Source: a cyanobacterium endosymbiont of Epithemia turgida isolate EtSB Lake Yunoko (GTDB lineage: Bacteria > Cyanobacteriota > Cyanobacteriia > Cyanobacteriales > Microcystaceae). Taken from it: a stretch of DNA of 32,000 nucleotides. Positions 2,084 through 32,000 of this stretch are shown here, one piece after another. A program made the position numbers and the translations under genes. The stretch lies in contig NZ_AP012549.1 of the NCBI RefSeq assembly GCF_000829235.1, forward strand, positions 1 through 32,000, read 5' to 3'. A model generated the notes under the pieces. That model ran no database searches and was not told the origin of the DNA. It was given only the letters and a program-made list of their open reading frames with translations. The first letter of the stretch is position 1. Every line of letters starts with the position of its first letter.

Positions 2084-3373
2084 GTGAAGTCTTTGTTGTC
2101 GAGTTTCCAGTCAAGATCTAATGATCTTCAATGGGTAGAGAATTTCCTCAAGTTTGGGGTCTTTTTATTCCCCTTTTCTGCCACTATTGGGGGTGTAGGT
2201 TTAGTGATTGCCTTGTTTAGCCTGTGGCAGCAACGTTTTCACCAAATTATTTCTAAGCGTTTTACCTGGATATTAGGAGTATTCAGTCTTTGGCTGGTTA
2301 TTACATCATTTTTTGCTTTTCAACCTATTCTTGCCTTACAAGGATTGCCAAATTTTCTACCAGGAATTCTTCTATTAGCTGCTTTCCCCATTTTTTTTGT
2401 TAATTTATATCGATTGTATCAGTTTGCTTGGTGGGTGGTTTTAACGTCTATTCTCCTGACTGGATTAGGGTTTATGCAACTAGGATGGGGTTGGGAAAGT
2501 CCACTTTTTTTTAGGAGTATTGGGATTAAATTACTGGCTTATGGTAACCCTGATGGACGAATGTCTTCTTTTTTGATGTATGCTAATATTTTAGCTATTT
2601 ATCTTCTGGTTTCTTTTTTGTTAGCCATAGGGTTATGGATTTATATCTATCGTCACCGGCAAGCAAAACACAAACGAGAGATAATTGGGAAACTAACTAT
2701 TCTCAGTCTTGCGGTAGTAGGAGATGGACTGGGACTAATTTTTACCAATTCTCGTAGTGTCTGGGGATTAGCCTTGTTAGGGATGGTGTCCTTTGCCATT
2801 TATTTACGTTGGTATTGGGCCATTTACCTAGCGGTTATCGCGGTTGGAATGGTTGTTTGGGCTGCCTGGGTTCCTTGGGGACAGGAAACTATACGTGAAC
2901 TGGTTCCTGCTTATTTTTGGACAAGGTTGACGGATGAATTATATGATGATCGCTACGTCACTGCTTTACGGACTACCCAATGGAAAGTCGCTAGAGCGAT
3001 GATATTACAACAGCCTTGGTTAGGATGGGGACTCCGGAATTTTACCCCAGTCTACCAAGCTGAAATGAATGTGTGGATGGGACATCCCCATAACTTATTT
3101 TTAATGTTGTTTGCTGAAATTGGCATCCCTGGAACTTTACTTTTTTGTGGCATTGTGGGAAATGTGATATTTCGAGGGGTAAGAAATTTAGTTCAATGGT
3201 CTAATAAGCAAGAAAAACGTCAAGAACATTTACTACTGTTTACTTATTTAATAAGTTTTTGCAGTTGTATTTTATTCAATCTATTTGATGTCACTCTTTT
3301 TGATATTCGGGTCAATCTGTTGGGGTGGTTTTTGTTGTCAGCGATCACTGGTATCACAGAAGTTAAACGTTAG
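2084..3373 (+). CDS. O-antigen ligase / O-antigen polymerase family (Wzy_C-type) integral membrane protein
   Basis: 429-aa polytopic membrane ORF with a GTG start. Carries the family loop and motif ...RTTQWKVARAMILQQPWLGWGLRNF...GHPHNLFLMLFAEIGIPGTLLF. Confidence 0.8.
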   Translation: MKSLLSSFQSRSNDLQWVENFLKFGVFLFPFSATIGGVGLVIALFSLWQQRFHQIISKRFTWILGVFSLWLVITSFFAFQPILALQGLPNFLPGILLLAAFPIFFVNLYRLYQFAWWVVLTSILLTGLGFMQLGWGWESPLFFRSIGIKLLAYGNPDGRMSSFLMYANILAIYLLVSFLLAIGLWIYIYRHRQAKHKREIIGKLTILSLAVVGDGLGLIFTNSRSVWGLALLGMVSFAIYLRWYWAIYLAVIAVGMVVWAAWVPWGQETIRELVPAYFWTRLTDELYDDRYVTALRTTQWKVARAMILQQPWLGWGLRNFTPVYQAEMNVWMGHPHNLFLMLFAEIGIPGTLLFCGIVGNVIFRGVRNLVQWSNKQEKRQEHLLLFTYLISFCSCILFNLFDVTLFDIRVNLLGWFLLSAITGITEVKR

Positions 3374-5600: not shown

Positions 5601-6004
5601 TTCGTTTTCTTCGAGAACCCCTTAAAGTCTATTCAAGAAAATAATTAGGACTATTGCATATTATAAAATTAACTATCAAATTAGTTACATACACATTACA
5701 AGTATTATTACTTATTAAATAATAATACATAAAGTCAATTATTAGCCTTCGATTGCTTAGGATGACTACTCACTCTTTAGTGGTATTTTTTCATGTATTT
5801 CACCGAAGTTTAATTAAGAATTAACAATACTAACACTTGTCAAGAAAAAATTATTACAATGAAAATAACGAGGTTATCATTGAAACCTCATTGATGACAA
5901 TTTATTGAGTTCAGGTCAATCAGCCATTTTTATGGAATATAGTACTCCGTCAGGGAAGGTTGTAGAGCCTCCGGCTCACAGGTGGGCTTATATTATAGGA
6001 ACCA

Positions 6005-6997
<993 letters not shown>

Positions 6998-7985: not shown

Positions 7986-8075
7986 GCATTACATGGTAAT
8001 ACCTTTATCTTTTATTTATTAAACAATTGTTACAGCTAATCTATAAGAGTTGCTTGTTATACAATTTTAACTTAA

Positions 8076-8120
8076 TCACTAAGAGTATGGTCTAATTATA
8101 TTAGACTATGCTCTTAGTGA
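8076..8120. repeat. 21-bp inverted repeat with a 3-nt loop and two transition mismatches
   Basis: tcactaagagtatggtctaat / tat / attagactatgctcttagtga. That is 19 Watson-Crick pairs plus two T:G pairs. Confidence 0.9.
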
Positions 8121-8254
8121 TGCGATAGTAAATTACTTTTATCTATCTTAGGTTTTCTATTTTTAATAATGGAACAACGGCAATTAAAAATTAAGCTTAT
8201 ATTTACCGATAAAAAAATGATTTTATCATAAAAAAATAATATTTATAATTATTG

Positions 8255-8294
8255 TAATAATTAGTATTCTTTTAAAGAAAAATACTAATTATTA
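8255..8294. repeat. 14-bp perfect inverted repeat with a 12-nt spacer
   Basis: taataattagtatt (8255-8268) and aatactaattatta (8281-8294). Confidence 0.85.
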
Positions 8295-9160
8295 ACTTAT
8301 ATTAACGATTAATATTGATTATTATTTAATAATACAGGTTTTGTTCTAAATATCTAAATTCAAATTTGCAAACTTTAACGATTATATAATTTAGTACTTA
8401 TAAAACAATACTACGATAACTATTTCAAAAAAGTAAGACGTAAAGCTAAATTACCTTCTCAACATAAATTAAGAGAAAGTTTATTAAGTAAATATAGATA
8501 AGCAATCAGTAGAGTAAAAAAAGTCAATAAAACAGTTACAAAAATTTATATATTTTGAATATTCGATATTATACATGTTTTAAATTTAGTCATTAATAGT
8601 TTGAATTAAAGAATATTTAAGAGATAAAAGTTGATTAATTAAGTTTACTGATTATTTTATAGTAAGTAATTATTTTAAATTTTCGTTGATTTAATCTCTC
8701 AAAGAGTTCTTGGGCAATAAATCCTCAGTATTTCAAGAGTTTTAAACTCAAGTATTACCTTAATTCAGGAACAGATTTACGGTCATCTATGTTGCCATAA
8801 GTTAATTTAAAAGCCAATAATTGACTGTCAACTTATTTCTATAATTTCTCTTTTATGAGTCTCTAAAAAACAGCACACTAAAATCATTATCCATGGCATA
8901 TTTTTCCCTACTATTAAATGAAACTATTATCTTTTTTTGATAAAGGTTTTCAATTAAGGAACAGAATAACAATGCCATTTTAATCTTTGATAGAAACAAT
9001 CTAGATAACAAAATACTTGGGTCAATATCGAGATATAATTTTATATTCATAGCATCTTACCTTAATAAATGCCGCTTCTGAAATAGATTCGCTACTTGTC
9101 TATCTCTCCCAAAATTTTTATAAAATTTACCTTGATTAATGTTGCCCCTGATGGATGACC

Positions 9161-11900: not shown

Positions 11901-12914
11901 TTTATTCTGTTACAATATAGATAGTGTTATTGAAAATCTTATAAAGCTAAGCTATATTTTTTTGCAATTTGATAAAATTGAGATGTTTAATTATACTTTT
12001 TTTAGTAACCTCTTATAGTTTTATACAATATTTTTTTATTTATTAGATAATGGTAAGTTTAATTATTTATAGTTAACTAAGCTATATTTTTTATGTTAAA
12101 TATTAATTAATCTACTCTTGGATAGAGTATTAATATACGTTTAAATAAAAAATATATCTTTGTTTTAAACAACATCAAACTTTTAAAAATCTATTTTTTT
12201 TTCAATTTTACTATTTCTGTAGTTAAATTACTCTTAATATAAATCTTATACTAAGTAATTCTAAATAAATATTTATAATACTGGATATCTAATTATATTA
12301 AAAAGTAAAAGTCATATTAATTAAGCATTCATAGTAATTTAATAATCAAAATATTAACAATTTACTTATTTTTTTAGATTTTTTTATAAAAATAATTTAT
12401 TTAAATTTAACTTTTTTAATATACTTATCAAGTAAATTTTTTATAGTATTCTGGTGTAACAGATAAATATTAATCATGTCTAATTGTTGTAAAGATTAAC
12501 TCAAAATAGACTTGACTTGTCTTGAGTAAAAACTGTTAAATTCAAACATAAAATTGTACCTATAAATTTTATAAAAGTAGAAATAAGAACAAATAACAAT
12601 ATAACTATTTAAAGAAGAAATAAGCCTACGAGTTATATGTTATAAATAACTAGGGATAGACTAGAGAAAAATGACTCAATAATGTAAAACAAAAACTTGG
12701 TCTATAAAATAACTGAGGAATTTAGTAAAGCTTTCTGTGAAGAGTCAAAACACTGCACTAGTCACAACTATAAGCTAGTTAATAAAAACATTAAGTTGCT
12801 GCAGTATTTCACTTACTGATTACCTTTTGGGAGGTATTTATATATAATTGACTCGATTCGTTTTTTATGTGCGCTCCCGATTATTATGGCGTAGATTATC
12901 TTATTTATCTATAG

Positions 12915-13437
12915 ATGGAAGAAAATATTCATAAATTAAACCGTAATCGTGCTGTGGAACAGTGACAGAACTTCTATCAAATCATAAAATATTTGGCAAT
13001 CGTCAATCTGATGACTCCCGAAAAAGGTCAGACAGATATACTATTTACCGCTAATTTAGGGTTGTTTTTAGGGGACAATGTTATTCCAAGTCGATTTTAC
13101 CACAAAGAACACCAAGGAGAAGACCTCTACTTCAAAAAATAGTTCGAGGAAAATGGTTTCACCGTCTACGGAATATCCGAGCATTTTCCCTTTGAAGGGA
13201 CATGGGTTTCGATATGAACTCGACTTATACTCTATGGTTGAAGACAGAAGTCCTCTCCCTACACTTGATCGACGAGTGATTCTCCCATCTGGACACTTGT
13301 TTTTGTCCTCTCAGTGGTGGTTAGTTGATATATTATCCCCTTCCTCCTTACTCGAATCGCCTCCTTTGTCTTTAACAAAATTTCTTAAAGCGGGGGCGGC
13401 TAAATGTTTGACCCTAAGAGTGTCAGAATTGTACTAG
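12915..13437 (+). pseudogene. Amidinotransferase / DDAH-like (pentein superfamily) pseudogene with internal deletion
   Basis: Reading across three frames:
- MEENIHKLNRNRAVEQ*QNFYQIIKYL..MTPEKGQTDILFTANLGLFLGDNVIPSRFYHKEHQGEDLYFKK*FEENGFTVYGISEHFPFEG
- GHGFRYELD
- FSHLDTCFCPLSGG*LIYYP (13280-13333)
- C-terminal TKFLKAGAAKCLTLRV, containing the catalytic-Cys motif
Trp codons have become TGA/TAG. There are at least 2 frameshifts. Only ~520 bp remain of a gene expected at ~800-900 bp. Confidence 0.78.
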
Positions 13438-13443
13438 ACTACG

Positions 13444-13473
13444 TTTACGCTAACTGCCTTTACGCTAACTACC
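13444..13473. repeat. 15-bp tandem duplication (tttacgctaactgcc / tttacgctaactacc)
   Basis: Direct reading. One mismatch between the copies. Confidence 0.9.
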
Positions 13474-14010
13474 TTATTGACAACCGTATTATCCAACTGC
13501 AAAACTATTTTTTCGATGCAGGGGTGATTAATAACGCCATCGACCAAATTGTGTCAAATTGGGGCAGCTTCAAGATTTTTAACTTTAATTTAGGAATATA
13601 ACGCTGAATTGTAAAGGCATTAAATACGGGTTAAAAGTAGTAAAGTGACAGTAAACTTAGGTGCTGCGGTAATTTGTAATTTTTTAAAATCAATACATCT
13701 TTTTTTAGCAAATAAAGGCTATATTTGCACTTTTTTGTCGTAAATACGATAGCTGTTCATGATATTAAATAAGCTGGTAACTCCTTTAGGGGTTGATATA
13801 AAACGGGTAGTTTCTGTAAGTGAAGGACATCGATGTTACACTCCACTGGAGTTAGTACAATGGCTCCAGCGGGAGTCAAAAAAGTTCGTGTGGAGGTTAA
13901 TCCTGCTATAGTGACTTAATTGTGTGATAGCGGTTCCGTAGCACCAGTAGATATTCTCAGTAAGGATAAAGAGTCGATTTATATTTTAATTAACATCTAT
14001 TAGTGTAATT

Positions 14011-14046
14011 ATTTTTTAGAATTAAAATAATTTAATTCTAAAAAAT
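14011..14046. repeat. 16-bp perfect inverted repeat with a 4-nt loop
   Basis: attttttagaattaaa / ataa / tttaattctaaaaaat. Confidence 0.9.
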
Positions 14047-14259
14047 AGAACTTTAAGCTTAGTCTATTTTTATTTATTAGAGTATTTAGTTATCTGCTGA
14101 GTATATTTTTGTGGGTAAATTCTAGTTGAATTAGTATAGTAGAATTATTCTATCTATTTTTAAGGCAGTATTGATTTTAAAACTTGGTTTAAAAATATTA
14201 AATTTTAAGAAAAAAATCTAATATAATAGAACTAAAATCTAATATAAAATCAAGAAAAA

Positions 14260-14303
14260 TTTTATATATAAATATTATTATTCAATGATATTTATATATA
14301 AAA
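14260..14303. repeat. 16-bp perfect inverted repeat with a 12-nt spacer (low-complexity TA-rich)
   Basis: ttttatatataaatat (14260-14275) and atatttatatataaaa (14288-14303). Confidence 0.8.
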
Positions 14304-14773
14304 AAAAAATAAGATTAGCACATAAATTTATTTTACTGCAGAATAAATTTCAATAAAAATGAGAAATCAACTTTTTTTTAAGGAACTAAAAATTATAGAT
14401 ATATATTATATCTATATCAAGGTCAATAAACTCATCTATTTTAATCATGCCTATTTAATTATCTTTAACCTCAAAAAGTTCAATTCAAATATAATCAATA
14501 CCATGTAATCTCAATGGTATAAATCAGAGATGAATAGATATTGATAGACAAATATATTGGTTTAGAGTTTTGTTAAAAACAGCAATTTTAATCATATTAC
14601 TTTATAAAAAATATTCCAAATTAGCTTTTTTAAAAAACATCAATAACAATAAATTATATTAGGTATTTCAAAATTATTAGAATCAGTATATCTTAAATAT
14701 TTAATAAAAAAATAAATAATGAATTAATCTTAATATTTAGCTTCAAAAACTACAATATTATTTATTAAAACAA

Positions 14774-14832
14774 AAATATAAATAAAATTCTAAGTTTAGA
14801 GTGTATCTAAACTTAGAATTTTATTTATATTT
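14774..14832. repeat. Perfect 27-bp-stem palindrome with a 5-nt loop
   Basis: aaatataaataaaattctaagtttaga / gtgta / tctaaacttagaattttatttatattt. Checked base by base. Confidence 0.95.
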
Positions 14833-14980
14833 ATAATACAAGAAACCTGATGATAACTATAGTATTTTTTATGAAGTAAAAACTAGAATAAACTTGTATA
14901 GCCTATTAGTAAACTTTGAGGATTATCCATCCATGAACCAAAACAGCGTTAAACTGACAAAGCGTTTGTCTAGTTCAATG

Positions 14981-15033
14981 AAAAAATTTTTAATTGTACC
15001 AAAAATTAAAATTGGTACAATTAAAAATTTTTT
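14981..15033. repeat. Perfect 22-bp inverted repeat with a 9-nt spacer
   Basis: aaaaaatttttaattgtaccaa / aaattaaaa / ttggtacaattaaaaatttttt. Confidence 0.95.
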
Positions 15034-15237
15034 TGAGATTAAATAAAGATTGTTGGGATCTTGTGGTGTCAACTACCTTAGTTAATTTTGACCACTGTAT
15101 CACCGTGTCACTGCATGACTTCATCAGTCTGTTACCCTCTGGCCCTTTCCAAGTCAATCCTAAAATGCGATAAAGTTAGCAGGATGAAACGTTTATTTTA
15201 AAACTGGAGTCCATTTTAATCAGGAGATTAAAATAAG

Positions 15238-15354
15238 ATGCTAATCCTAAAAATTGCAGTTTATATAGTCGTTGCTTTATTCATTTCTCTGTTTGTCTTC
15301 AGTTTTCTATCGAGTGACTAAACTCGTAACCCTAGACGGAAAGATTTTGAGTAA
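15238..15354 (+). pseudogene. psbI: Photosystem II reaction-centre protein I (PsbI) gene with an in-frame TAA replacing codon 28
   Basis: An AGGAG sits about 11 nt upstream of ATG 15238. Translation is [37 protein letters not shown]. From memory, cyanobacterial PsbI reads [38 protein letters not shown]. The TAA at 15319-15321 sits where the conserved Pro codon should be. Confidence 0.88.
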
Positions 15355-15466
15355 GCATAATTTGACTGTGTTAACTTAGGTGATTAAGACGACAGGGGCG
15401 AGGTACGGCTCGTCCCGAGCGTTCTTCTGCTGAGTCACGCTGCAGGTAGCAATTGACCCCTTAAGC

Positions 15467-18019
15467 TTGATTTTTATCGAAAAGATGCCCCCATTCGTTC
15501 CGCCACCTAATCCGCCCGCACTAATCCAACCTATAGCCCTTGACCCTCAAGGCAATTGCCTGGAGATTCTGAATAAAGGATTGTCCACTCACACCATCCT
15601 TGGAAAACGTCCCCCCCTTATTTCTCAGATCCCAATTTTGATGCTCGAACCTCCATCATTAGAGTCGTCTGAAAAAATCCCAGCGACAAAACCCCCTGGA
15701 GTTATTGAATTTTATCTGTCTGACCCCAAAGAAATTACCACTAAGTCTTTACCCCCTAATTCTTCATCTGAAGACAATAGTGCTAGGACATTAGGGAATC
15801 CGATTTCTGTCGGTCAACCGTCTTCAACAAAAAGCACATCAACAATGATTAATCCAGTTCCTAACCTGGTCTTTGGGCTCAATCAACGTCATGACAGCTT
15901 CTCAAATACAGTCCATCGTCTCGTTACTCGTAAACGAAGAGGGCCAATACAAGAATTTAAGCTCCTAACCTCTTCTACACCTAAAGGACAAGAAACCTCT
16001 ATAAGTCAACAAACATTGGAAATTATTCCTGAATCCTCACCGGAACTAGATACCGCTTCAATCCCAGAAGAAGCCATAGGGGTAGTGGAATTGATTGCTG
16101 ATCGTCAAGAATATGATTCTAAACAAGAGGTAGTCTACGCCGAAGGCAATGTGGTCATGCGCTTTGCTAATGGAGTTCTATTAGCAAAGCGCATGCGCGT
16201 TAATCTCCCCGATCAATTTGTTGTTGCCGAGGGAGAAGTAGTACTAGAACGAGGAGAACAAACCCTACGCGGAGAAAAGTTTGAGTATTATTTTGTGCAA
16301 GATCAAGGGGTGGTCTTCAACGCTAATGGGGAGATTTATCAACCTACAACAGGAAAAGACTTTTCGCCAAGATTACCCAACGATTCTACTAACGATCTTA
16401 TTCCCAACCAAACTTTAAATGAACGCTTAGCGGTAAATCAGCCTCTACAACGAATCACTACTACTGAAGGGTTTCGTTTCGGAACTTCCTTTGATTTTGG
16501 AAAGGAAGCCTTAGGACTGGGAAGTGATGTTCCTAATCTACCAGCGACCCAAGTGCCGCCTAAAGGAGGACAAATCAATCGTATCCGCTTCCAGTCTGAA
16601 CGAATGGAATTTGATGGAGATGGATGGAGTGCCACGAATGCTCGTTTAACTAATGATCCCTTCTCCCCCCCTGAGTTAGAAATTCGAGCAGAAACAGCAA
16701 CATTTCGCAATATTGCTCCCTTGGTAGATGAGGTAAAATTGACTAATTCGCGAGTGGTGCTTGATCAAACAAATTCCTTTCCCACCCAAGATCGGTTGAT
16801 TTTAGATCGGCGTGATCGCCAACCTGGGGTAATTTCTTTTGGTTATGATGACCGAGATCGCGGAGGATTGTATGTGGAACGAGGCTTTAATATAGTTGAT
16901 GATGATATGGTTAGTTGGGAACTTAAGCCCCAATATTACATCCAAAAAGGATTATTTCCTGACAGTATTACTACAGACAATCCCAATACTGATCTCTTTG
17001 ATGCAGACACAGACGACATTGATGCTATTAGTCCCCCAACATTCGGACTTATCAACAGAGTTGAGGCTAACTTTAGTAAGAACACTAAATTATTTTCCCG
17101 AACCTCACTGACGAGTCTAGATTTTAATAACCGCACTGAAGAACATATCCGAACAAAAACCTATTTTGAACAGAAGGTTCCCTTGTTCAGTATGGATAAT
17201 GATTTGCGATTTGAATATAATTATCGTGAACGTCTTTTTAATGGCTCCTTGGGTTTCCAAACTGTCCGGGATAGTTTGGGGTTGCTTTTCGTGTCTCCTC
17301 AAATTCCTCTTGATCAGAAAGGGTTACTGCGGCTGAGTTATCAGGCATCTCTGCAAAATGTTAATGCCGACACGGATCAACCAGAGTTACTCGCCCCAAT
17401 TCGAGAAAATAATCGTGTTACCCTCTTTCGTACCCAAGGAGCCGCATCGGTAAGCCGACCCTTTATGTTATGGGTAGGGAAAGCCTTACCCCCAACTTCT
17501 AAAGAAGGGCTGCGTTACACTTCTACTCCTGTACTACCTTTTGTTCAACTTTCCACCAGTGTGACAGGAGTGGCCAGCCTCTATGGTAATGGTGATTCTC
17601 AACCTTCGATTTCAGGTAGTATTGGAGTCTCAGGACAATTGGGCAATTTTTCCCGCCCCTTTTTCGATTATACAGGGTTTAATCTTTCTTTTAGTCAGGC
17701 ATTGCGCGGAGATCCTTCTCCATTTTTATTCGATCGTTTTGCCGATCTCAAAACCATCTCTTGGGCATTAACCCAACAGCTATATGGACCTGTACGCTTT
17801 GGGGTTCAAAGCGCCTTAAATATCGATACTGATGATGAAATTAACACGGATTTATTCCTTGAATATAGTCGCCGTACCTACAATATTCTCCTACGTTATA
17901 ATAGCCGTCTTCAAGTAGGTTCTATCAGTTTACGAATCAGCGACTTTAATTGGAGTGGTGATCCAGGTCCATTTGACGGGACGGGAATTCGTCCAGTTAT
18001 TCAAGGAGTTCCCCGCTAA
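15467..18019 (+). CDS. lptD: LptD/OstA-like LPS-assembly outer-membrane protein (cyanobacterial long form); start codon uncertain
   Basis: 850-codon ORF. Contains an OstA-N-type repeat block VELIADRQEYDSKQEVVYAEGNVVMRFANGVLLAKRMRVNLPDQFVVAEGEVVLERGEQTLRGEKFEYYF. This follows a Pro/Ser-rich N-terminal region and precedes a long beta-rich C-terminal domain. Candidate starts are TTG 15467 or ATG 15485; neither has a clear RBS. No signal peptide is visible (see findings). Confidence 0.65.
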   Translation: MIFIEKMPPFVPPPNPPALIQPIALDPQGNCLEILNKGLSTHTILGKRPPLISQIPILMLEPPSLESSEKIPATKPPGVIEFYLSDPKEITTKSLPPNSSSEDNSARTLGNPISVGQPSSTKSTSTMINPVPNLVFGLNQRHDSFSNTVHRLVTRKRRGPIQEFKLLTSSTPKGQETSISQQTLEIIPESSPELDTASIPEEAIGVVELIADRQEYDSKQEVVYAEGNVVMRFANGVLLAKRMRVNLPDQFVVAEGEVVLERGEQTLRGEKFEYYFVQDQGVVFNANGEIYQPTTGKDFSPRLPNDSTNDLIPNQTLNERLAVNQPLQRITTTEGFRFGTSFDFGKEALGLGSDVPNLPATQVPPKGGQINRIRFQSERMEFDGDGWSATNARLTNDPFSPPELEIRAETATFRNIAPLVDEVKLTNSRVVLDQTNSFPTQDRLILDRRDRQPGVISFGYDDRDRGGLYVERGFNIVDDDMVSWELKPQYYIQKGLFPDSITTDNPNTDLFDADTDDIDAISPPTFGLINRVEANFSKNTKLFSRTSLTSLDFNNRTEEHIRTKTYFEQKVPLFSMDNDLRFEYNYRERLFNGSLGFQTVRDSLGLLFVSPQIPLDQKGLLRLSYQASLQNVNADTDQPELLAPIRENNRVTLFRTQGAASVSRPFMLWVGKALPPTSKEGLRYTSTPVLPFVQLSTSVTGVASLYGNGDSQPSISGSIGVSGQLGNFSRPFFDYTGFNLSFSQALRGDPSPFLFDRFADLKTISWALTQQLYGPVRFGVQSALNIDTDDEINTDLFLEYSRRTYNILLRYNSRLQVGSISLRISDFNWSGDPGPFDGTGIRPVIQGVPR

Positions 18020-18336: not shown

Positions 18337-19221
18337 TTATCTTGTTAATTCTTGAAAAGGAACAGCTTTCCGTTTCAAAGTCCTCATGGCTCGATTGTTT
18401 AATTGTCGTACTCTTTTATAGCTTAACCCGCATTGTTGTCCAATTTCTTTATAACTCATTCGTCTTCCATTTTGTAAACCATAGCGTAAAGTAATAATTT
18501 CTCTTTGACTAGGAGGTAAATTGTTTAATAATTCACCAATTTTTGATTCTAGTTCTTGTTGATATACAAAATCATTTGGTGATCTTGTTTCATCGGGTAG
18601 AATATCTTCTAACTCTGTATTATGTTCGTCTAGAACAATGTTTAAGCTATGAGAGTTCGTTTTATAAACAGCTTGGCTGATAGTTCGTAGTTTCTCTAGA
18701 GTAATTTTTAGCTTTTGAGCCATTTCTTCTTCGGTAGGTTTCCGTCCTAATTCTACGGAAAGTTCCCGTAGTATTTTTTTGATTTTATTAAAACTATCGG
18801 TTACATGAATGGGAAGACGAATGGTTCGTGCTTGTTGAGCAATCGCTCGTGTAATAGCTTGACGAATCCACCAATAAGCATAGGTAGAAAACTTATAACC
18901 GCGATCAGGATCAAATTTCCCAACCCCTTGTATTAACCCAATACTTCCTTCTTGAACTAAATCTAATAAAGATAATCCACGGTTTTGATACTTTTTAGCG
19001 ATAGAAACTACTAAACGCAAATTGGCTTTAAGCATTTTTTGCTTAGCTTGTTCTCCTCGCTTGACTATTTTTTGTTCTTCCGTAGTTAATTTTTCTTTAT
19101 CTAAAAAAGAAACCATTTCTTTTACCTGAGAAGCAAGGTTAAATTCCTCTTCAGGACTTAGCAAAGGAGTTCGTCCAATTTCTTGCAAATAAGTACGGGT
19201 GCTGTCAATTGATTTAGGCAT
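18337..19221 (-). CDS. RNA polymerase sigma-70 family factor, group-2-like
   Basis: 294 aa. Regions 2-4 are present: [57 protein letters not shown]-terminal HTH: [29 protein letters not shown]. Confidence 0.9.
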
Positions 19222-29596: not shown

Positions 29597-32000
29597 ATGA
29601 CGATTACTGAAATACTTGATAAACTCCGTAAATTAACGCAGATTAATATCCAATCTTCTTGGCTTAGTATTTCTGAGCAAATCTCTTTTGATTCTATCGA
29701 TATAGATATTTGGAAACCTGTTATTCTGAATCAGAAAGGTTACATTGTTTGTCCAGCAGGAAAACAGGTTAAATGGTTAGCTCAAAAGCTTATAATTCCT
29801 CAAGAAATTAGGGGGTATCCTCTGTCAGGATTAACCGTCAAATTAGCTTTAACTTGGTGGGCAGAAAAAGCAGAAATTTTTATTGACAAAAAATTAGTAC
29901 AAGAGGGAGACTTATTTGATTCTTCAGCTAGGATTTTAGTAAGTAAATCTGCTAAACCAAGAGAGGAATTTTTGATTTTATTACGTTTAGTTAGTCCTAG
30001 TCATGATATTGGTGGGCTAATGAGTTCTCAACTCATTTATGAAACAGATATAGGTTTAATAGACCCTGGTTTTGTTGCTGATGAGCTAACTATATTATAC
30101 AATTATTTGTCTGCTTTTGAACCTCAAAATATAAATTTATTTCAAAAAATAATTAATCGAATAAACTGGAATATTGTCGAGAACAAAAAAAAATTTAATT
30201 GCCATTTATTGGAATTACGTAAAAGTCTTAAACCTTTGGCTAAAAATATTAAAAACTACTCTTTATATTTATTAGGACATGCTCATTTAGATATGGCTTG
30301 GTTATGGCTAGTTGATGAAACTTGGGATGTAGGAGAGAGGACATTTGATTCTGTCATAAACCTACAGAAAGAGTTTCCAGAGCTTATTTTTGGTCATACA
30401 ACTCCTGTTCTTTATGAATGGATAGAAAAACATCGCCCTCAGCTTTTTAAAGAAATTATAAAAGCATATAAACAAGGAAAATGGGAAATATTAGGAGGAA
30501 TGTGGGTTGAACCAGAAGTAAATTTAGCATCTGGAGAATCAATGGTTAGACAACTGTTGTATGGACAACGTTTTTTTAAAGAAAAATTTGGAAAAATAAC
30601 CCAGATTGCTTGGCTTCCTGATAGTTTTGGTTTTACTTGGCAATTGCCACAGATTTTCCACCAGAGTGGAATTAAATATTTTGTAACTGGAAAACTTCAC
30701 TGGAATACTAATGTAAAATTCCCTTATGGGTTTTTTTATTGGAAATCTCCCGATGGAACTCAATTATTAACTCTTATTTCTCCTCCAAACGTCGCTGGAG
30801 TTATGAACACTAATCCTCTGAGAATGACTAATTATTCTATTTCATGGAAGCAACAAACAGGCTTGCAAGATGCTTTGTGGTTGCCTGGAGTGGGAGATCA
30901 TGGAGGAGGTCCAACTCGTGATATGTTAACTGTTCAAAATCGTTGGAGACAGTCTCCTTTTTTTCCTGAAATTAATTTTACTAAAGCTATTGATTATTTA
31001 GATAAATTGAGAGAAATTTCTGATTATATTCCGGTTTGGGATGATGAACTTTATCTAGATTTACATCGGGGTTGCTATACAACTCATGCTGATCAAAAAT
31101 TTTATAATCGTCGCTGTGAAGATTTGCTATATCAAGCTGAATTATGGTTTTCTATCGCAACAATTATTCAAAAAATAAATGTTAATGTTGATAGCAAAAT
31201 ATTGTTAGAAAAAGCCTGGAAAAAAGTTTTATTCAATCAGTTTCATGATATTTTACCGGGAACTTCTATTCCTGAAGTTTTTAATCAAGCTAATAAAGAT
31301 TGGCAGAAAGCTTTAAAAATTAGTAAATCTTTATTAAACGATTCTTTCCAAACGATTATTTCTCAAATTTCCTTGCCAAAATCACCTAAAACTAAGGCTA
31401 TTCCTTTGATAATTTTTAATTCTCTAAATTGGCAAAGATCAGAAGTTATCGAATTTTCAGCAACAGAAAATAACTGTAAAATTTACGATTCAGAAGGAAA
31501 TCAATTAACCTCTCAACTATCAACCGATAATAAACTTTTATTCTTCGCAGAAAATATTCCATCAATTGGATACCGCATTTTCTGGTTATGTCCTACCGAC
31601 AAAACTTCAGAAAACACTGATATAGTCAATAATAATGATTGTAGTCTTGAGAATCAATACTTAAAAGTTACTATTAATTCTGAAACAGGAAATATAAACA
31701 GTATTTTTGATAAAGTCGCTAAAAAAGAAATTGTTAGGGGAGAATGTAATCAATTGCAAGGATTTCAAGATCAAGGACAATATTGGGATGCTTGGAATAT
31801 TGATCCCAATTATAATGATTATCCCTTGCCAGAAACTGAATTAAAGACCATTGAATATTTAGAAATGGGTCCTATACAATGGACAATAAGAGTAATTCGA
31901 CAACTAGGAAACTCAGAATTTTGTCAAGATTATAGTTTACGAATTAACTCAAAAGTTATTATAATTAAAACAAAAGTTGACTGGCAAGAAACTCATGTAT
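29597..32000 (+). CDS. Glycoside hydrolase family 38 alpha-mannosidase; 3' end runs off the window
   Basis: Open frame from ATG 29597 to the window edge (about 801 codons). It is absent from the ORF track, probably because it has no stop in the window. GH38 motifs: LLGHAHLDMAWLW, GGMWVEPE, AWLPDSFGF, GVGDHGGGPT, DLHRGCYTTHADQK, NQFHDILPGTSI. Confidence 0.92.
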   Translation, partial: MTITEILDKLRKLTQINIQSSWLSISEQISFDSIDIDIWKPVILNQKGYIVCPAGKQVKWLAQKLIIPQEIRGYPLSGLTVKLALTWWAEKAEIFIDKKLVQEGDLFDSSARILVSKSAKPREEFLILLRLVSPSHDIGGLMSSQLIYETDIGLIDPGFVADELTILYNYLSAFEPQNINLFQKIINRINWNIVENKKKFNCHLLELRKSLKPLAKNIKNYSLYLLGHAHLDMAWLWLVDETWDVGERTFDSVINLQKEFPELIFGHTTPVLYEWIEKHRPQLFKEIIKAYKQGKWEILGGMWVEPEVNLASGESMVRQLLYGQRFFKEKFGKITQIAWLPDSFGFTWQLPQIFHQSGIKYFVTGKLHWNTNVKFPYGFFYWKSPDGTQLLTLISPPNVAGVMNTNPLRMTNYSISWKQQTGLQDALWLPGVGDHGGGPTRDMLTVQNRWRQSPFFPEINFTKAIDYLDKLREISDYIPVWDDELYLDLHRGCYTTHADQKFYNRRCEDLLYQAELWFSIATIIQKINVNVDSKILLEKAWKKVLFNQFHDILPGTSIPEVFNQANKDWQKALKISKSLLNDSFQTIISQISLPKSPKTKAIPLIIFNSLNWQRSEVIEFSATENNCKIYDSEGNQLTSQLSTDNKLLFFAENIPSIGYRIFWLCPTDKTSENTDIVNNNDCSLENQYLKVTINSETGNINSIFDKVAKKEIVRGECNQLQGFQDQGQYWDAWNIDPNYNDYPLPETELKTIEYLEMGPIQWTIRVIRQLGNSEFCQDYSLRINSKVIIIKTKVDWQETHV

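What the first reader, a model, noticed from the sequence alone, without database searches (positions are those of the whole stretch)
15238..15354. psbI relic: complete 38-codon PSII gene with RBS, killed by a stop at codon 28
The translation [37 protein letters not shown] closely matches cyanobacterial PsbI as I recall it, apart from a TAA in place of the conserved Pro and a few conservative changes. An AGGAG and the ATG are still there. A Pro codon (CCN) needs at least two substitutions to become TAA, so this is not a sequencing-type single error. One stop in 39 codons is in line with the stop density in the por relic, so both may have been released from selection at about the same time. A 27-aa peptide holding the whole transmembrane helix could still be made.
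Basis: partly seen in the sequence, partly recalled or inferred. Interest (0 to 1): 0.75.

Follow-up and report, generated by a model that had tools for sequence, protein, structure and literature searches.

The report
Dead psbI gene in diatom endosymbiont
This is a real but already annotated dead copy of the small photosystem II gene psbI in the non-photosynthetic, nitrogen-fixing cyanobacterial endosymbiont of the diatom Epithemia turgida; it is ordinary in itself, although sister endosymbionts oddly still keep this one photosystem gene intact and conserved.

Summary
Window 15238-15354 (+) is an orthologous psbI with its Shine-Dalgarno sequence and ATG, closed by TAA at codon 28. The window is the Epithemia turgida spheroid-body genome (EtSB): the neighbouring protein is identical to BAP16919.1. 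The locus is already annotated as pseudogene ETSB_0011 and is tabulated in a 2026 paper, which shows that every other PSI/PSII gene is absent or broken in six such genomes.

New here:
- The stop is shared with the E. adnata endosymbiont. A sister lineage keeps the intermediate, so the path was CCA(Pro) -> CAA(Gln) -> TAA, after G22S at an invariant glycine.
- On this lineage psbI evolves at about the neutral rate.
- psbI was disabled at least three times independently. It remains an open, slowly evolving ORF in R. gibberula-type, R. gibba-type and E. clementina endosymbionts (2 changes against 24.4 expected in the R. gibberula-type clade). This is unexplained.
- The 130-nt spacer downstream is an ultra-conserved leader of the essential ostA/lptD-like gene. 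Its constraint is separate from that on psbI.

Verdict: a genuine, fairly young, already known pseudogene.

The parts
15238..15354 (+). psbI pseudogene (ETSB_0011): 38 codons plus the terminal stop, interrupted at codon 28
   Evidence: Translation. Pfam PF02532 at 76.2 bits with the stop masked. Synteny with the ostA-like gene. Listed as pseudogene (ETSB-0011) in PMC12903740 Table S2.
15238..15321 (+). Residual ORF: 27 codons (the transmembrane helix) plus the premature TAA
   Evidence: the ORF listing. The same 27-aa ORF is called in the E. adnata endosymbiont.
15319..15321 (+). Codon 28 TAA, ancestrally CCA (Pro), reached via CAA (Gln)
   Evidence: CCA in Rg, Ra, Ec, Ep, L088 and L089; CAA in L087; TAA in the window and Ea.
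15301..15303 (+). Codon 22 AGT (Ser), replacing a Gly that is invariant in all functional PsbI retrieved; shared with Ea and L087
15334..15336 (+). Codon 33 AGA (Arg, in place of Gly); a variable position, changed in parallel in several endosymbionts
15222..15226 (+). Shine-Dalgarno AGGAG, 11 nt before the ATG, with the same spacing as in functional Rippkaea psbI
   Evidence: Mutated to AGAAG in L087.
15170..15237 (+). psbI 5' region. It starts at a conserved GATAAAGT (TAAAGT at 15171-15176, a possible -10 box; inferred). The boundary between decayed DNA and conserved DNA lies here.
   Evidence: 0.28 steps/site against 0.70 (15100-15169) and 0.93-1.25 further upstream. Conserved in Rippkaea and L081. 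Promoter role is inferred, not shown.
15355..15484 (+). Ultra-conserved non-coding leader/promoter region of the ostA/lptD-like gene. Blocks: 15367-15391, hairpin 15395-15416, 15434-15450, 15460-15478. It is not part of psbI.
   Evidence: 0 of 130 differences among four genomes. 16 changes observed against 131 expected crown-wide. Present in Rippkaea and Crocosphaera, and partly in UCYN-A, which lacks psbI. The frame is closed by stops.
15485..18019 (+). Intact ostA/lptD-like outer-membrane protein gene (DUF3769), identical to EtSB BAP16919.1
   Evidence: Pfam PF12600 at 598 bits. Homologues are named OstA family and many carry PF03968; the gene is retained in UCYN-A. 0 of 844 differences to P0125. 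Codon positions 1+2 differ by 0.03 against 0.18 at fourfold sites.

Best explanation
Window 15238-15354 is the orthologous psbI of the Epithemia turgida spheroid body (diazoplast). It is now a true pseudogene drifting at about the neutral rate.

The endosymbiont lineage lost photosystem II, so PsbI has no D1 partner. On the stem of the E. turgida / E. adnata / L087 clade, selection on psbI lapsed. Two residues that are invariant in functional PsbI were then replaced: Gly22 -> Ser and Pro28 -> Gln (CCA -> CAA). After L087 split off, CAA mutated to TAA.

The relic still looks almost perfect for two reasons. It is only 114 nt long, and it went neutral recently compared with the other photosynthesis relics. 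It probably also escapes deletion because it sits directly against the promoter/leader of an essential ostA/lptD-like gene.

Shown: orthology, the order of the lesions, the shared stop, the neutral-like rate on this lineage, the absence of PSII, and the separate constraint on the leader. Inferred: lack of function of any 27-aa product, and protection from deletion.
For: - Identity and orthology.
- The window is EtSB: the ostA-like protein is identical to BAP16919.1.
- The TAA and G22S are shared with the independently assembled E. adnata endosymbiont.
- L087 carries CAA at codon 28 together with G22S and G33R in an open frame.
- Branch mapping: 4 changes on the ((Et,Ea),L087) stem (3 nonsynonymous, 1 synonymous), then CAA -> TAA on the (Et,Ea) stem.
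- Rate in dead-psbI lineages: 29 observed against 33.7 expected from fourfold sites, ratio 0.86, dN/dS about 0.84.
- The neutral proxy is validated by the adjacent argZ relic: 0.40 against 0.36 steps/site.
- No functional PSI/PSII genes in EtSB or RgSB (PMC5638926). Every other psa/psb gene is absent or broken in six endosymbiont genomes, and psbI is listed as (ETSB-0011), meaning pseudogene (PMC12903740 Table S2).
- Faster pseudogenisation in EtSB than in RgSB is published.
Against: - On the path to the window alone, 5 changes are observed against 9.3 expected (P=0.10). Mild residual constraint cannot be excluded with 117 sites.
- There are no indels in psbI in the ingroup, and SD and ATG are intact.
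- All three independent disabling events lie at codon 28 or later, just after the transmembrane helix (P about 0.024). A truncated peptide could therefore be tolerated or even used.
- No expression data could be accessed.
- Neutral expectations rest on 278 fourfold sites of one gene, parsimony, and a one-gene NJ tree.
Confidence: 0.85

Rival explanations
1. The locus still makes a useful product. The 27-codon ORF (SD, ATG, whole transmembrane helix) is translated into a membrane micropeptide that keeps a PSII-independent role, and loss of the C-terminal tail is tolerated.
For: - SD and ATG are intact.
- The stub alone still scores 45.7 bits against PsbI.
- Three independent lesions (Et/Ea nonsense, Ep frameshift, L080/L090 indel plus stop) all fall at codon 28 or later (P about 0.024).
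- Intact sister copies evolve under constraint.
Against: - In this clade the helix itself carries G22S at an invariant glycine.
- The rate in dead-psbI lineages is neutral-like, with dN/dS about 0.84.
- The sister L087 has mutated its SD, and L090 has accumulated L2I, T3N, K5Q, V20I, G22S and S25L within the helix.
- The clustering test rests on three events and was done post hoc.
Confidence: 0.08
2. The psbI sequence is kept at the nucleotide level because it is part of the transcript or upstream regulatory region of the essential ostA/lptD-like gene (read-through from the strong psbI promoter). On this view it is a recycled leader rather than a drifting relic.
For: - The gene pair is adjacent on the same strand in 61 of 78 cyanobacterial loci.
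- Conservation begins abruptly at about 15170 and runs to the ostA-like ATG.
- The psbI TSS is among the strongest in S. elongatus (PMC6091082).
- Synonymous sites are also slow on conserved branches: 9 observed against 19.3 expected.
- No indels in psbI, against heavy indel load in the neighbouring argZ relic.
Against: - The constraint is not universal. In the Et/Ea/L087 and L080/L090 clades psbI runs at 0.86 of neutral and its 5' region at 0.62, while the spacer stays at 0.08.
- UCYN-A keeps the leader blocks without any psbI.
- Block 1 contains its own extended -10-like motif, so the ostA-like gene probably has its own promoter (inference).
- At most this explains why the relic has not been deleted.
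Confidence: 0.06
3. The gene is functional and the stop is either an assembly or sequencing artefact or is read through by recoding.
For: Only the near-perfect preservation of the remaining 37 codons.
Against: - The same TAA is present in a second, independent genome.
- The CAA intermediate is present in L087.
- G22S is also present.
- No PSII partners are encoded.
- The locus is annotated as a pseudogene in two genomes.
Confidence: 0.01

Closest known systems
Functional cyanobacterial PsbI (Pfam PF02532; e.g. Synechocystis PsbI in PDB 6wj6 chain I; Rippkaea orientalis PCC 8801 psbI)
   Same: Same length (38 codons), same position upstream of the ostA-like gene, same SD spacing. 32 of 38 residues match Synechocystis PsbI when the stop is ignored.
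   Different: Stop at invariant Pro28, Ser at invariant Gly22, Ile at the otherwise invariant Thr3. No D1, D2, CP47 or CP43 partners are encoded in the genome.
Annotated psbI pseudogenes of spheroid bodies: ETSB_0011 (E. turgida), KPI85_04275 (E. adnata), OXU93_07505 (E. pelagica), as tabulated in PMC12903740 Table S2
   Same: The window locus is ETSB_0011 itself. KPI85_04275 carries the identical TAA and G22S.
   Different: E. pelagica (L002) is broken independently by a +1 frameshift at codon 31. The published table records only 'broken' or 'intact'. It does not give the order of lesions, the rates or the timing.
Intact psbI ORFs in other PSII-less spheroid bodies: RGRSB_1056 (R. gibberula), JJP05_04535 (R. 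gibba), P3F56_09970 (E. clementina), plus L088 and L089
   Same: Same locus, and the same non-photosynthetic background in which every other photosystem gene is dead.
   Different: These are open 38-codon frames. The R. gibberula-type clade shows 2 changes against 24.4 expected (P=8e-9), and dN/dS on slow branches is about 0.2-0.3. The window's lineage evolves neutrally.
Older photosynthesis relics in the same window: lpor (ETSB_0006; 6113-6997, minus strand). The argZ relic (about 12600-14110) is a non-photosynthetic comparison.
   Same: They are products of the same reductive evolution after the shift to an intracellular, non-photosynthetic life.
   Different: They are far more decayed: about 18 stops in 300 codons, many indels, and neutral divergence already between sister genomes. 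psbI died much later.
UCYN-A (nitroplast), the independently reduced relative that also lost PSII
   Same: It lacks PSII and keeps the ostA-like gene with parts of the conserved leader.
   Different: psbI has been removed entirely, with no relic.

Membership tests
PsbI (PF02532), functional photosystem II subunit | Full-length sequence match to the family profile above the curated threshold | tested here: met
   76.2 bits against a cut-off of 27, profile positions 1-36 of 36, with the stop replaced by Pro. phmmer against PDB PsbI chains reaches E=2.9e-16.
PsbI (PF02532), functional photosystem II subunit | Uninterrupted ORF of about 36-38 codons | tested here: not met
   TAA at codon 28, positions 15319-15321. 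The same stop is present in the E. adnata endosymbiont.
PsbI (PF02532), functional photosystem II subunit | Residues invariant in functional orthologues (Thr3, Leu4, Gly22, Pro28) | tested here: not met
   All 57 free-living orthologues have T3, L4, G22 and P28. The window has I3, S22 and a stop at 28.
PsbI (PF02532), functional photosystem II subunit | Conserved genomic position (directly upstream of the DUF3769/ostA-like gene, same strand) | tested here: met
   Found in 61 of 78 loci and in the window. Aligned with Rippkaea and Crocosphaera.
PsbI (PF02532), functional photosystem II subunit | Partner PSII core subunits encoded in the same genome | not testable with these tools
   Only 32 kb of the genome is in hand. 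The literature reports all other psb genes absent or broken in EtSB (PMC12903740 Table S2; PMC5638926).
Unitary pseudogene (relic of a vertically inherited gene) | Orthology to a functional gene, plus a disabling lesion confirmed independently | tested here: met
   Synteny. The lesion is present in a second assembly and the intermediate codon in a third lineage.
Unitary pseudogene (relic of a vertically inherited gene) | Neutral substitution rate and dN/dS near 1 on its own lineage | tested here: met
   Dead-psbI lineages: 29 observed against 33.7 expected, dN/dS about 0.84. Path to the window: 5 against 9.3, not significantly below neutral. Power is limited by the 117 sites.
Unitary pseudogene (relic of a vertically inherited gene) | No functional product | not testable with these tools
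   No RNA-seq, Ribo-seq or proteome data for this locus could be accessed.
Known RNA families (for the adjacent conserved leader) | Match to an Rfam covariance model | tested here: not met
   No hit at the gathering threshold in the window except NsiR4 elsewhere. Nothing credible at E<=1 in 14800-15700.

The most novel reading that the evidence does not exclude
psbI is the last photosystem gene standing in diazoplasts because it, or its translated transcript, kept a PSII-independent function. On this reading it stayed under purifying selection well into the spheroid-body radiation, and it still is in the R. gibberula-type and R. gibba-type endosymbionts. It has since been lost independently at least three times, and the E. 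turgida copy in this window is one of those recent losses.
Probability: 0.3. Interest if true: 0.6.

Novelty: already known. Interest (0 to 1): 0.3.

Why it matters
As a pseudogene, this locus only confirms what is published: Epithemia/Rhopalodia endosymbionts have abandoned photosynthesis, and EtSB decays faster than its relatives.

Its value is as a dated example of gene death. Three related genomes preserve successive steps:
- the intact gene;
- missense changes at invariant residues, with the frame still open;
- the nonsense mutation.

The comparison also raises two questions that can be tested:
- Why has psbI alone among about 35 photosystem genes stayed open and conserved in several PSII-less lineages? 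[quoted passage not shown]
- What does the ultra-conserved leader in front of the ostA/lptD-like outer-membrane gene do?

If PsbI has a role outside PSII, that would matter for PSII assembly biology and for understanding which genes endosymbionts keep.

Tried and rejected
- Exact-match scan of JGI metagenomes with the 34-nt invariant part of the spacer: no hits.
The neighbouring ostA-like protein was used as the anchor instead.
- Rfam at the gathering threshold and at E<=1: no family for psbI, its flanks or the spacer.
- Single-sequence fold of the spacer: not more stable than shuffles, z=-0.74.
- The RNAalifold structure (block 1 pairs with block 3 around a hairpin) is 97% paired, but covariation is not significant: 184-194 of 500 shuffles reach the observed values. 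I do not claim a structure.
- The idea that the spacer is an N-terminal coding extension of the ostA-like gene, prompted by the UCYN-A annotation, is rejected. In-frame stops occur in all genomes but UCYN-A, and an indel in EcSB breaks the frame.
- The idea that psbI's slow evolution is a by-product of the leader is rejected as the main cause, because the constraint disappears in dead-psbI lineages while the leader stays frozen.
- I looked for an intact lpor between aconitase and psbI in L002 and found none. It lies beyond aconitase.
I replaced them with X-masked translations and stop-free segments.
- Transcriptome and proteome papers: no accessible data for this locus.
- Names for assemblies L080 and L081 could not be obtained.

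Full report
**1. The observation**

Window 15238-15354 (+) translates as [37 protein letters not shown]. AGGAG lies at 15222-15226, 11 nt before the ATG. With the stop masked, the sequence matches Pfam PsbI (PF02532) end to end at 76.2 bits against a cut-off of 27. The 27-residue stub alone scores 45.7 bits. The nearest solved structure is Synechocystis PsbI, 6wj6 chain I, E=2.9e-16. The match is therefore real and not a chance resemblance.

**2. Where the window comes from**

- The intact genes are cyanobacterial: a DUF3769 protein, aconitase B, a sigma-70 factor, chorismate synthase and a ferredoxin-type sulfite/nitrite reductase. The NsiR4 sRNA is also present.
- Long stretches have no ORFs, and their G+C falls to 19-22%.
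- Using the DUF3769 gene just downstream of psbI as an anchor retrieved the spheroid bodies (diazoplasts) of rhopalodiacean diatoms at 89-95% identity.
- The window's DUF3769 protein is identical, 0 of 844 residues different, to BAP16919.1 of the Epithemia turgida spheroid body, EtSB.
- In PMC12903740 Table S2 this psbI is entered as '(ETSB-0011)', and the brackets mark a pseudogene. It is also a pseudogene in the E. adnata and E. pelagica endosymbionts, and intact in those of E. clementina, R. gibberula and R. gibba.
- In the same table every other psa and psb gene is absent or broken in all six genomes.
- PMC5638926 reports no functional PSI or PSII genes in EtSB or RgSB, and faster pseudogenisation in EtSB.

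**3. How the gene died**

- psbI lies directly upstream of the DUF3769 gene, on the same strand, in 61 of 78 cyanobacterial loci. Orthology is therefore secure.
- All 57 free-living copies have Thr3, Leu4, Gly22 and Pro28.
- I assembled eleven endosymbiont genomes or contigs plus three outgroups.
- Codon 28 is CCA in every intact copy and TAA in the window and the E. adnata endosymbiont. It is CAA (Gln) in L087, a metagenomic contig that is sister to those two.
- L087 is still an open 38-codon frame. It already carries G22S and G33R, and its SD has mutated to AGAAG.
- On the fourfold-site tree the changes map as follows. G22S, one synonymous change, P28Q and G33R fall on the ((Et,Ea),L087) stem, and CAA -> TAA falls on the (Et,Ea) stem.
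- The 'two substitutions' puzzle is therefore solved: CCA -> CAA -> TAA, with missense damage at invariant residues before the nonsense mutation.
- The stop is older than the Et/Ea split (fourfold p=0.017) and younger than the split from the R. gibba-type lineage (p=0.136).

**4. Is it drifting neutrally?**

- I took fourfold-degenerate sites of the adjacent ostA-like gene as the neutral proxy.
- I checked this proxy against the dead ArgZ-like gene directly upstream (about 12600-14110). It gives 0.40 steps/site against 0.36 for fourfold sites, and it is riddled with indels.
- In the lineages where psbI is visibly dead (the Et/Ea/L087 clade and the L080/L090 clade), psbI shows 29 changes against 33.7 expected, with dN/dS about 0.84. 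That is neutral.
- On the path to the window alone there are 5 changes against 9.3 expected (P=0.10). This is compatible with neutrality, but the power is low.

**5. Comparison with the por relic**

- The lpor relic lies at 6113-6997 on the minus strand.
- It has about 45% amino-acid identity to the intact copy in L002 (the 2.48-Mb assembly uoEpiScrs1, most probably the E. pelagica endosymbiont), about 18 in-frame stops and several indels.
- It differs between sister genomes at about 20-22%, against about 18% at fourfold sites.
- lpor was therefore already dead when these genomes diverged, and psbI was not.

**6. The unexpected part**

- Across the whole endosymbiont crown, psbI has 55 changes against 118 expected (ratio 0.47). 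The deficit is concentrated in particular lineages:

| Lineage | psbI changes observed | Expected | P |
|---|---|---|---|
| R. gibberula-type clade (Rg, L088, stem) | 2 | 24.4 | 8e-9 |
| R. gibba-type clade | 4 | 10.5 | 0.02 |
| E. pelagica | 7 | 22.3 | 1.6e-4 |
| Deep internal crown branches | 9 | 21.5 | 0.002 |

- On these slow branches nonsynonymous to synonymous changes run 5-8 to 9, giving dN/dS of about 0.2-0.3 (binomial P=0.002-0.013). This is similar to the mean of 0.17 reported for core endosymbiont genes.
- Synonymous sites on these branches are also slow: 9 observed against 19.3 expected.
- The E. clementina copy is open but evolves at a neutral-like rate (4 against 5.9, mostly nonsynonymous). 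It may be a cryptic pseudogene.
- psbI was disabled at least three times independently:
  - the Et/Ea nonsense mutation;
  - a +1 frameshift at codon 31 in E. pelagica;
  - P28L plus an indel and a stop at codon 30 in L080/L090.
- All three lesions lie at or after codon 28, just past the transmembrane helix (P about 0.024, post hoc).
- I chose the branch partition after seeing the rates. The contrast in N:S between the two sets is only borderline (Fisher P=0.02-0.12). The rate deficit in the R. gibberula-type clade survives any reasonable correction for multiple tests.

**7. Is the conservation a side effect of the neighbouring gene?**

- The 130-nt spacer (15355-15484) is identical in four genomes whose coding sequences differ by 5-7%. 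Crown-wide it shows 16 changes against 131 expected.
- Its sequence blocks are present in Rippkaea PCC 8801, Crocosphaera ATCC 51142 and the unnamed relative L081. Three of the four blocks are present in UCYN-A, which has no psbI at all.
- The frame upstream of the ATG at 15485 is closed by stops in every genome except UCYN-A, so the spacer is non-coding.
- It contains an extended -10-like TGnTAACTT (15369-15377) and a hairpin (15395-15416).
- It has no Rfam match. A fold pairing block 1 with block 3 is plausible but lacks significant covariation.
- The spacer stays frozen in the dead-psbI lineages (3 against 37.3), where psbI runs at 0.86 of neutral and its 5' region at 0.62.
- The spacer is therefore the promoter/leader of the ostA/lptD-like gene, and its constraint is separate from that on psbI. 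This gene is essential-looking: it is retained even in UCYN-A, and many homologues carry the OstA N-terminal domain.
- Proximity to this element may protect the relic from deletion. It does not explain the slow evolution of psbI in sister lineages.

**8. Verdict**

- The finding is a genuine, comparatively young and already annotated pseudogene. It sits in a genome long known to be non-photosynthetic.
- Its near-perfect look reflects small size and late death.
- The more interesting results lie just outside the claim:
  - the preserved intermediate of the two-step stop;
  - the unexplained, lineage-specific conservation of psbI as the only surviving photosystem ORF in several diazoplasts;
  - the uncharacterised, ultra-conserved leader next door.

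**9. Caveats**

- Neutral expectations come from 278 fourfold sites of one gene, parsimony counts and a one-gene NJ tree.
- psbI offers only 117 sites.
- The identities of L080, L081, L087, L089 and L090 rest on synteny and similarity alone.
- No expression data were available.

Noticed in passing
window 15355-15484 (+): Ultra-conserved non-coding region between psbI and the ostA/lptD-like gene.
- 0 of 130 differences among four endosymbiont genomes, and 16 changes against 131 expected across eleven.
- Its blocks are shared with Rippkaea and Crocosphaera, and partly with UCYN-A.
- It contains an extended -10-like TGnTAACTT (15369-15377) and a hairpin (15395-15416).
- No Rfam family matches it. 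A predicted structure pairing block 1 with block 3 lacks significant covariation.
- It is probably the promoter plus 5' leader of the ostA-like gene.
   Followed up: partly
L001, L003, L004, L088, L089 (psbI position, about 130 nt upstream of the DUF3769 start): psbI is an open 38-codon ORF in five PSII-less endosymbiont genomes. In the R. gibberula-type clade it has 2 changes against 24.4 expected (P=8e-9). It is the only PSI/PSII structural gene not broken or deleted in these genomes, whereas papers state that diazoplasts lost all photosystem genes.
   Followed up: partly
61 of loci L001-L078: psbI lies directly upstream of the DUF3769/ostA-like gene, on the same strand, across Chroococcales, Oscillatoriales and Nostocales. 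This is a phylum-wide gene pair, and I am not aware of a published explanation for it.
   Followed up: no
L084 and L085, around position 3001 (UCYN-A): The annotated start of the UCYN-A ostA-like gene falls inside conserved leader block 1. The ATG homologous to all other genomes is 35 codons downstream (MLSFVPPPN...). The annotation is probably over-extended.
   Followed up: partly
window 6113-6997 (-): Heavily decayed relic of light-dependent protochlorophyllide reductase (lpor, ETSB_0006): about 45% identity to the intact L002 (uoEpiScrs1, most probably E. pelagica) copy, about 18 in-frame stops, and indels.
   Followed up: yes
window about 12600-14110 (+): Relic of an ArgZ-like arginine dihydrolase gene (fragments of ArgZ-like_C_2nd and Saccharop_dh_N). 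It is also fragmented in L080, L088 and L090. I used it as the neutral-rate control.
   Followed up: yes
window 5724-5789 (+): NsiR4 (nitrogen stress-induced sRNA 4, RF02677) at 42.9 bits against a gathering score of 40. It is retained in an obligate N2-fixing endosymbiont, in the middle of decayed DNA.
   Followed up: no
L087 3612-4346 and L089 6259-6608, against window 18337-19221 (-): The sigma-70 factor gene downstream of the ostA-like gene is intact (294 aa) in the window. It is called as two fragments in L087 and L089, which suggests lineage-specific pseudogenisation of a sigma factor, or assembly errors in those contigs.
   Followed up: no
window about 29600-32000 (+): A long open frame with GH38 alpha-mannosidase-like motifs runs off the end of the window. 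It is missing from the ORF list only because it is truncated by the window edge. I identified it by eye from the translation and did not test it.
   Followed up: no
window 8000-9000, 12000-13000, 14000-15000: Stretches with 19-22% G+C and no recognisable coding remnants. Divergence between sister genomes is at or above the fourfold-site rate. This is presumably fully eroded former genes.
   Followed up: partly
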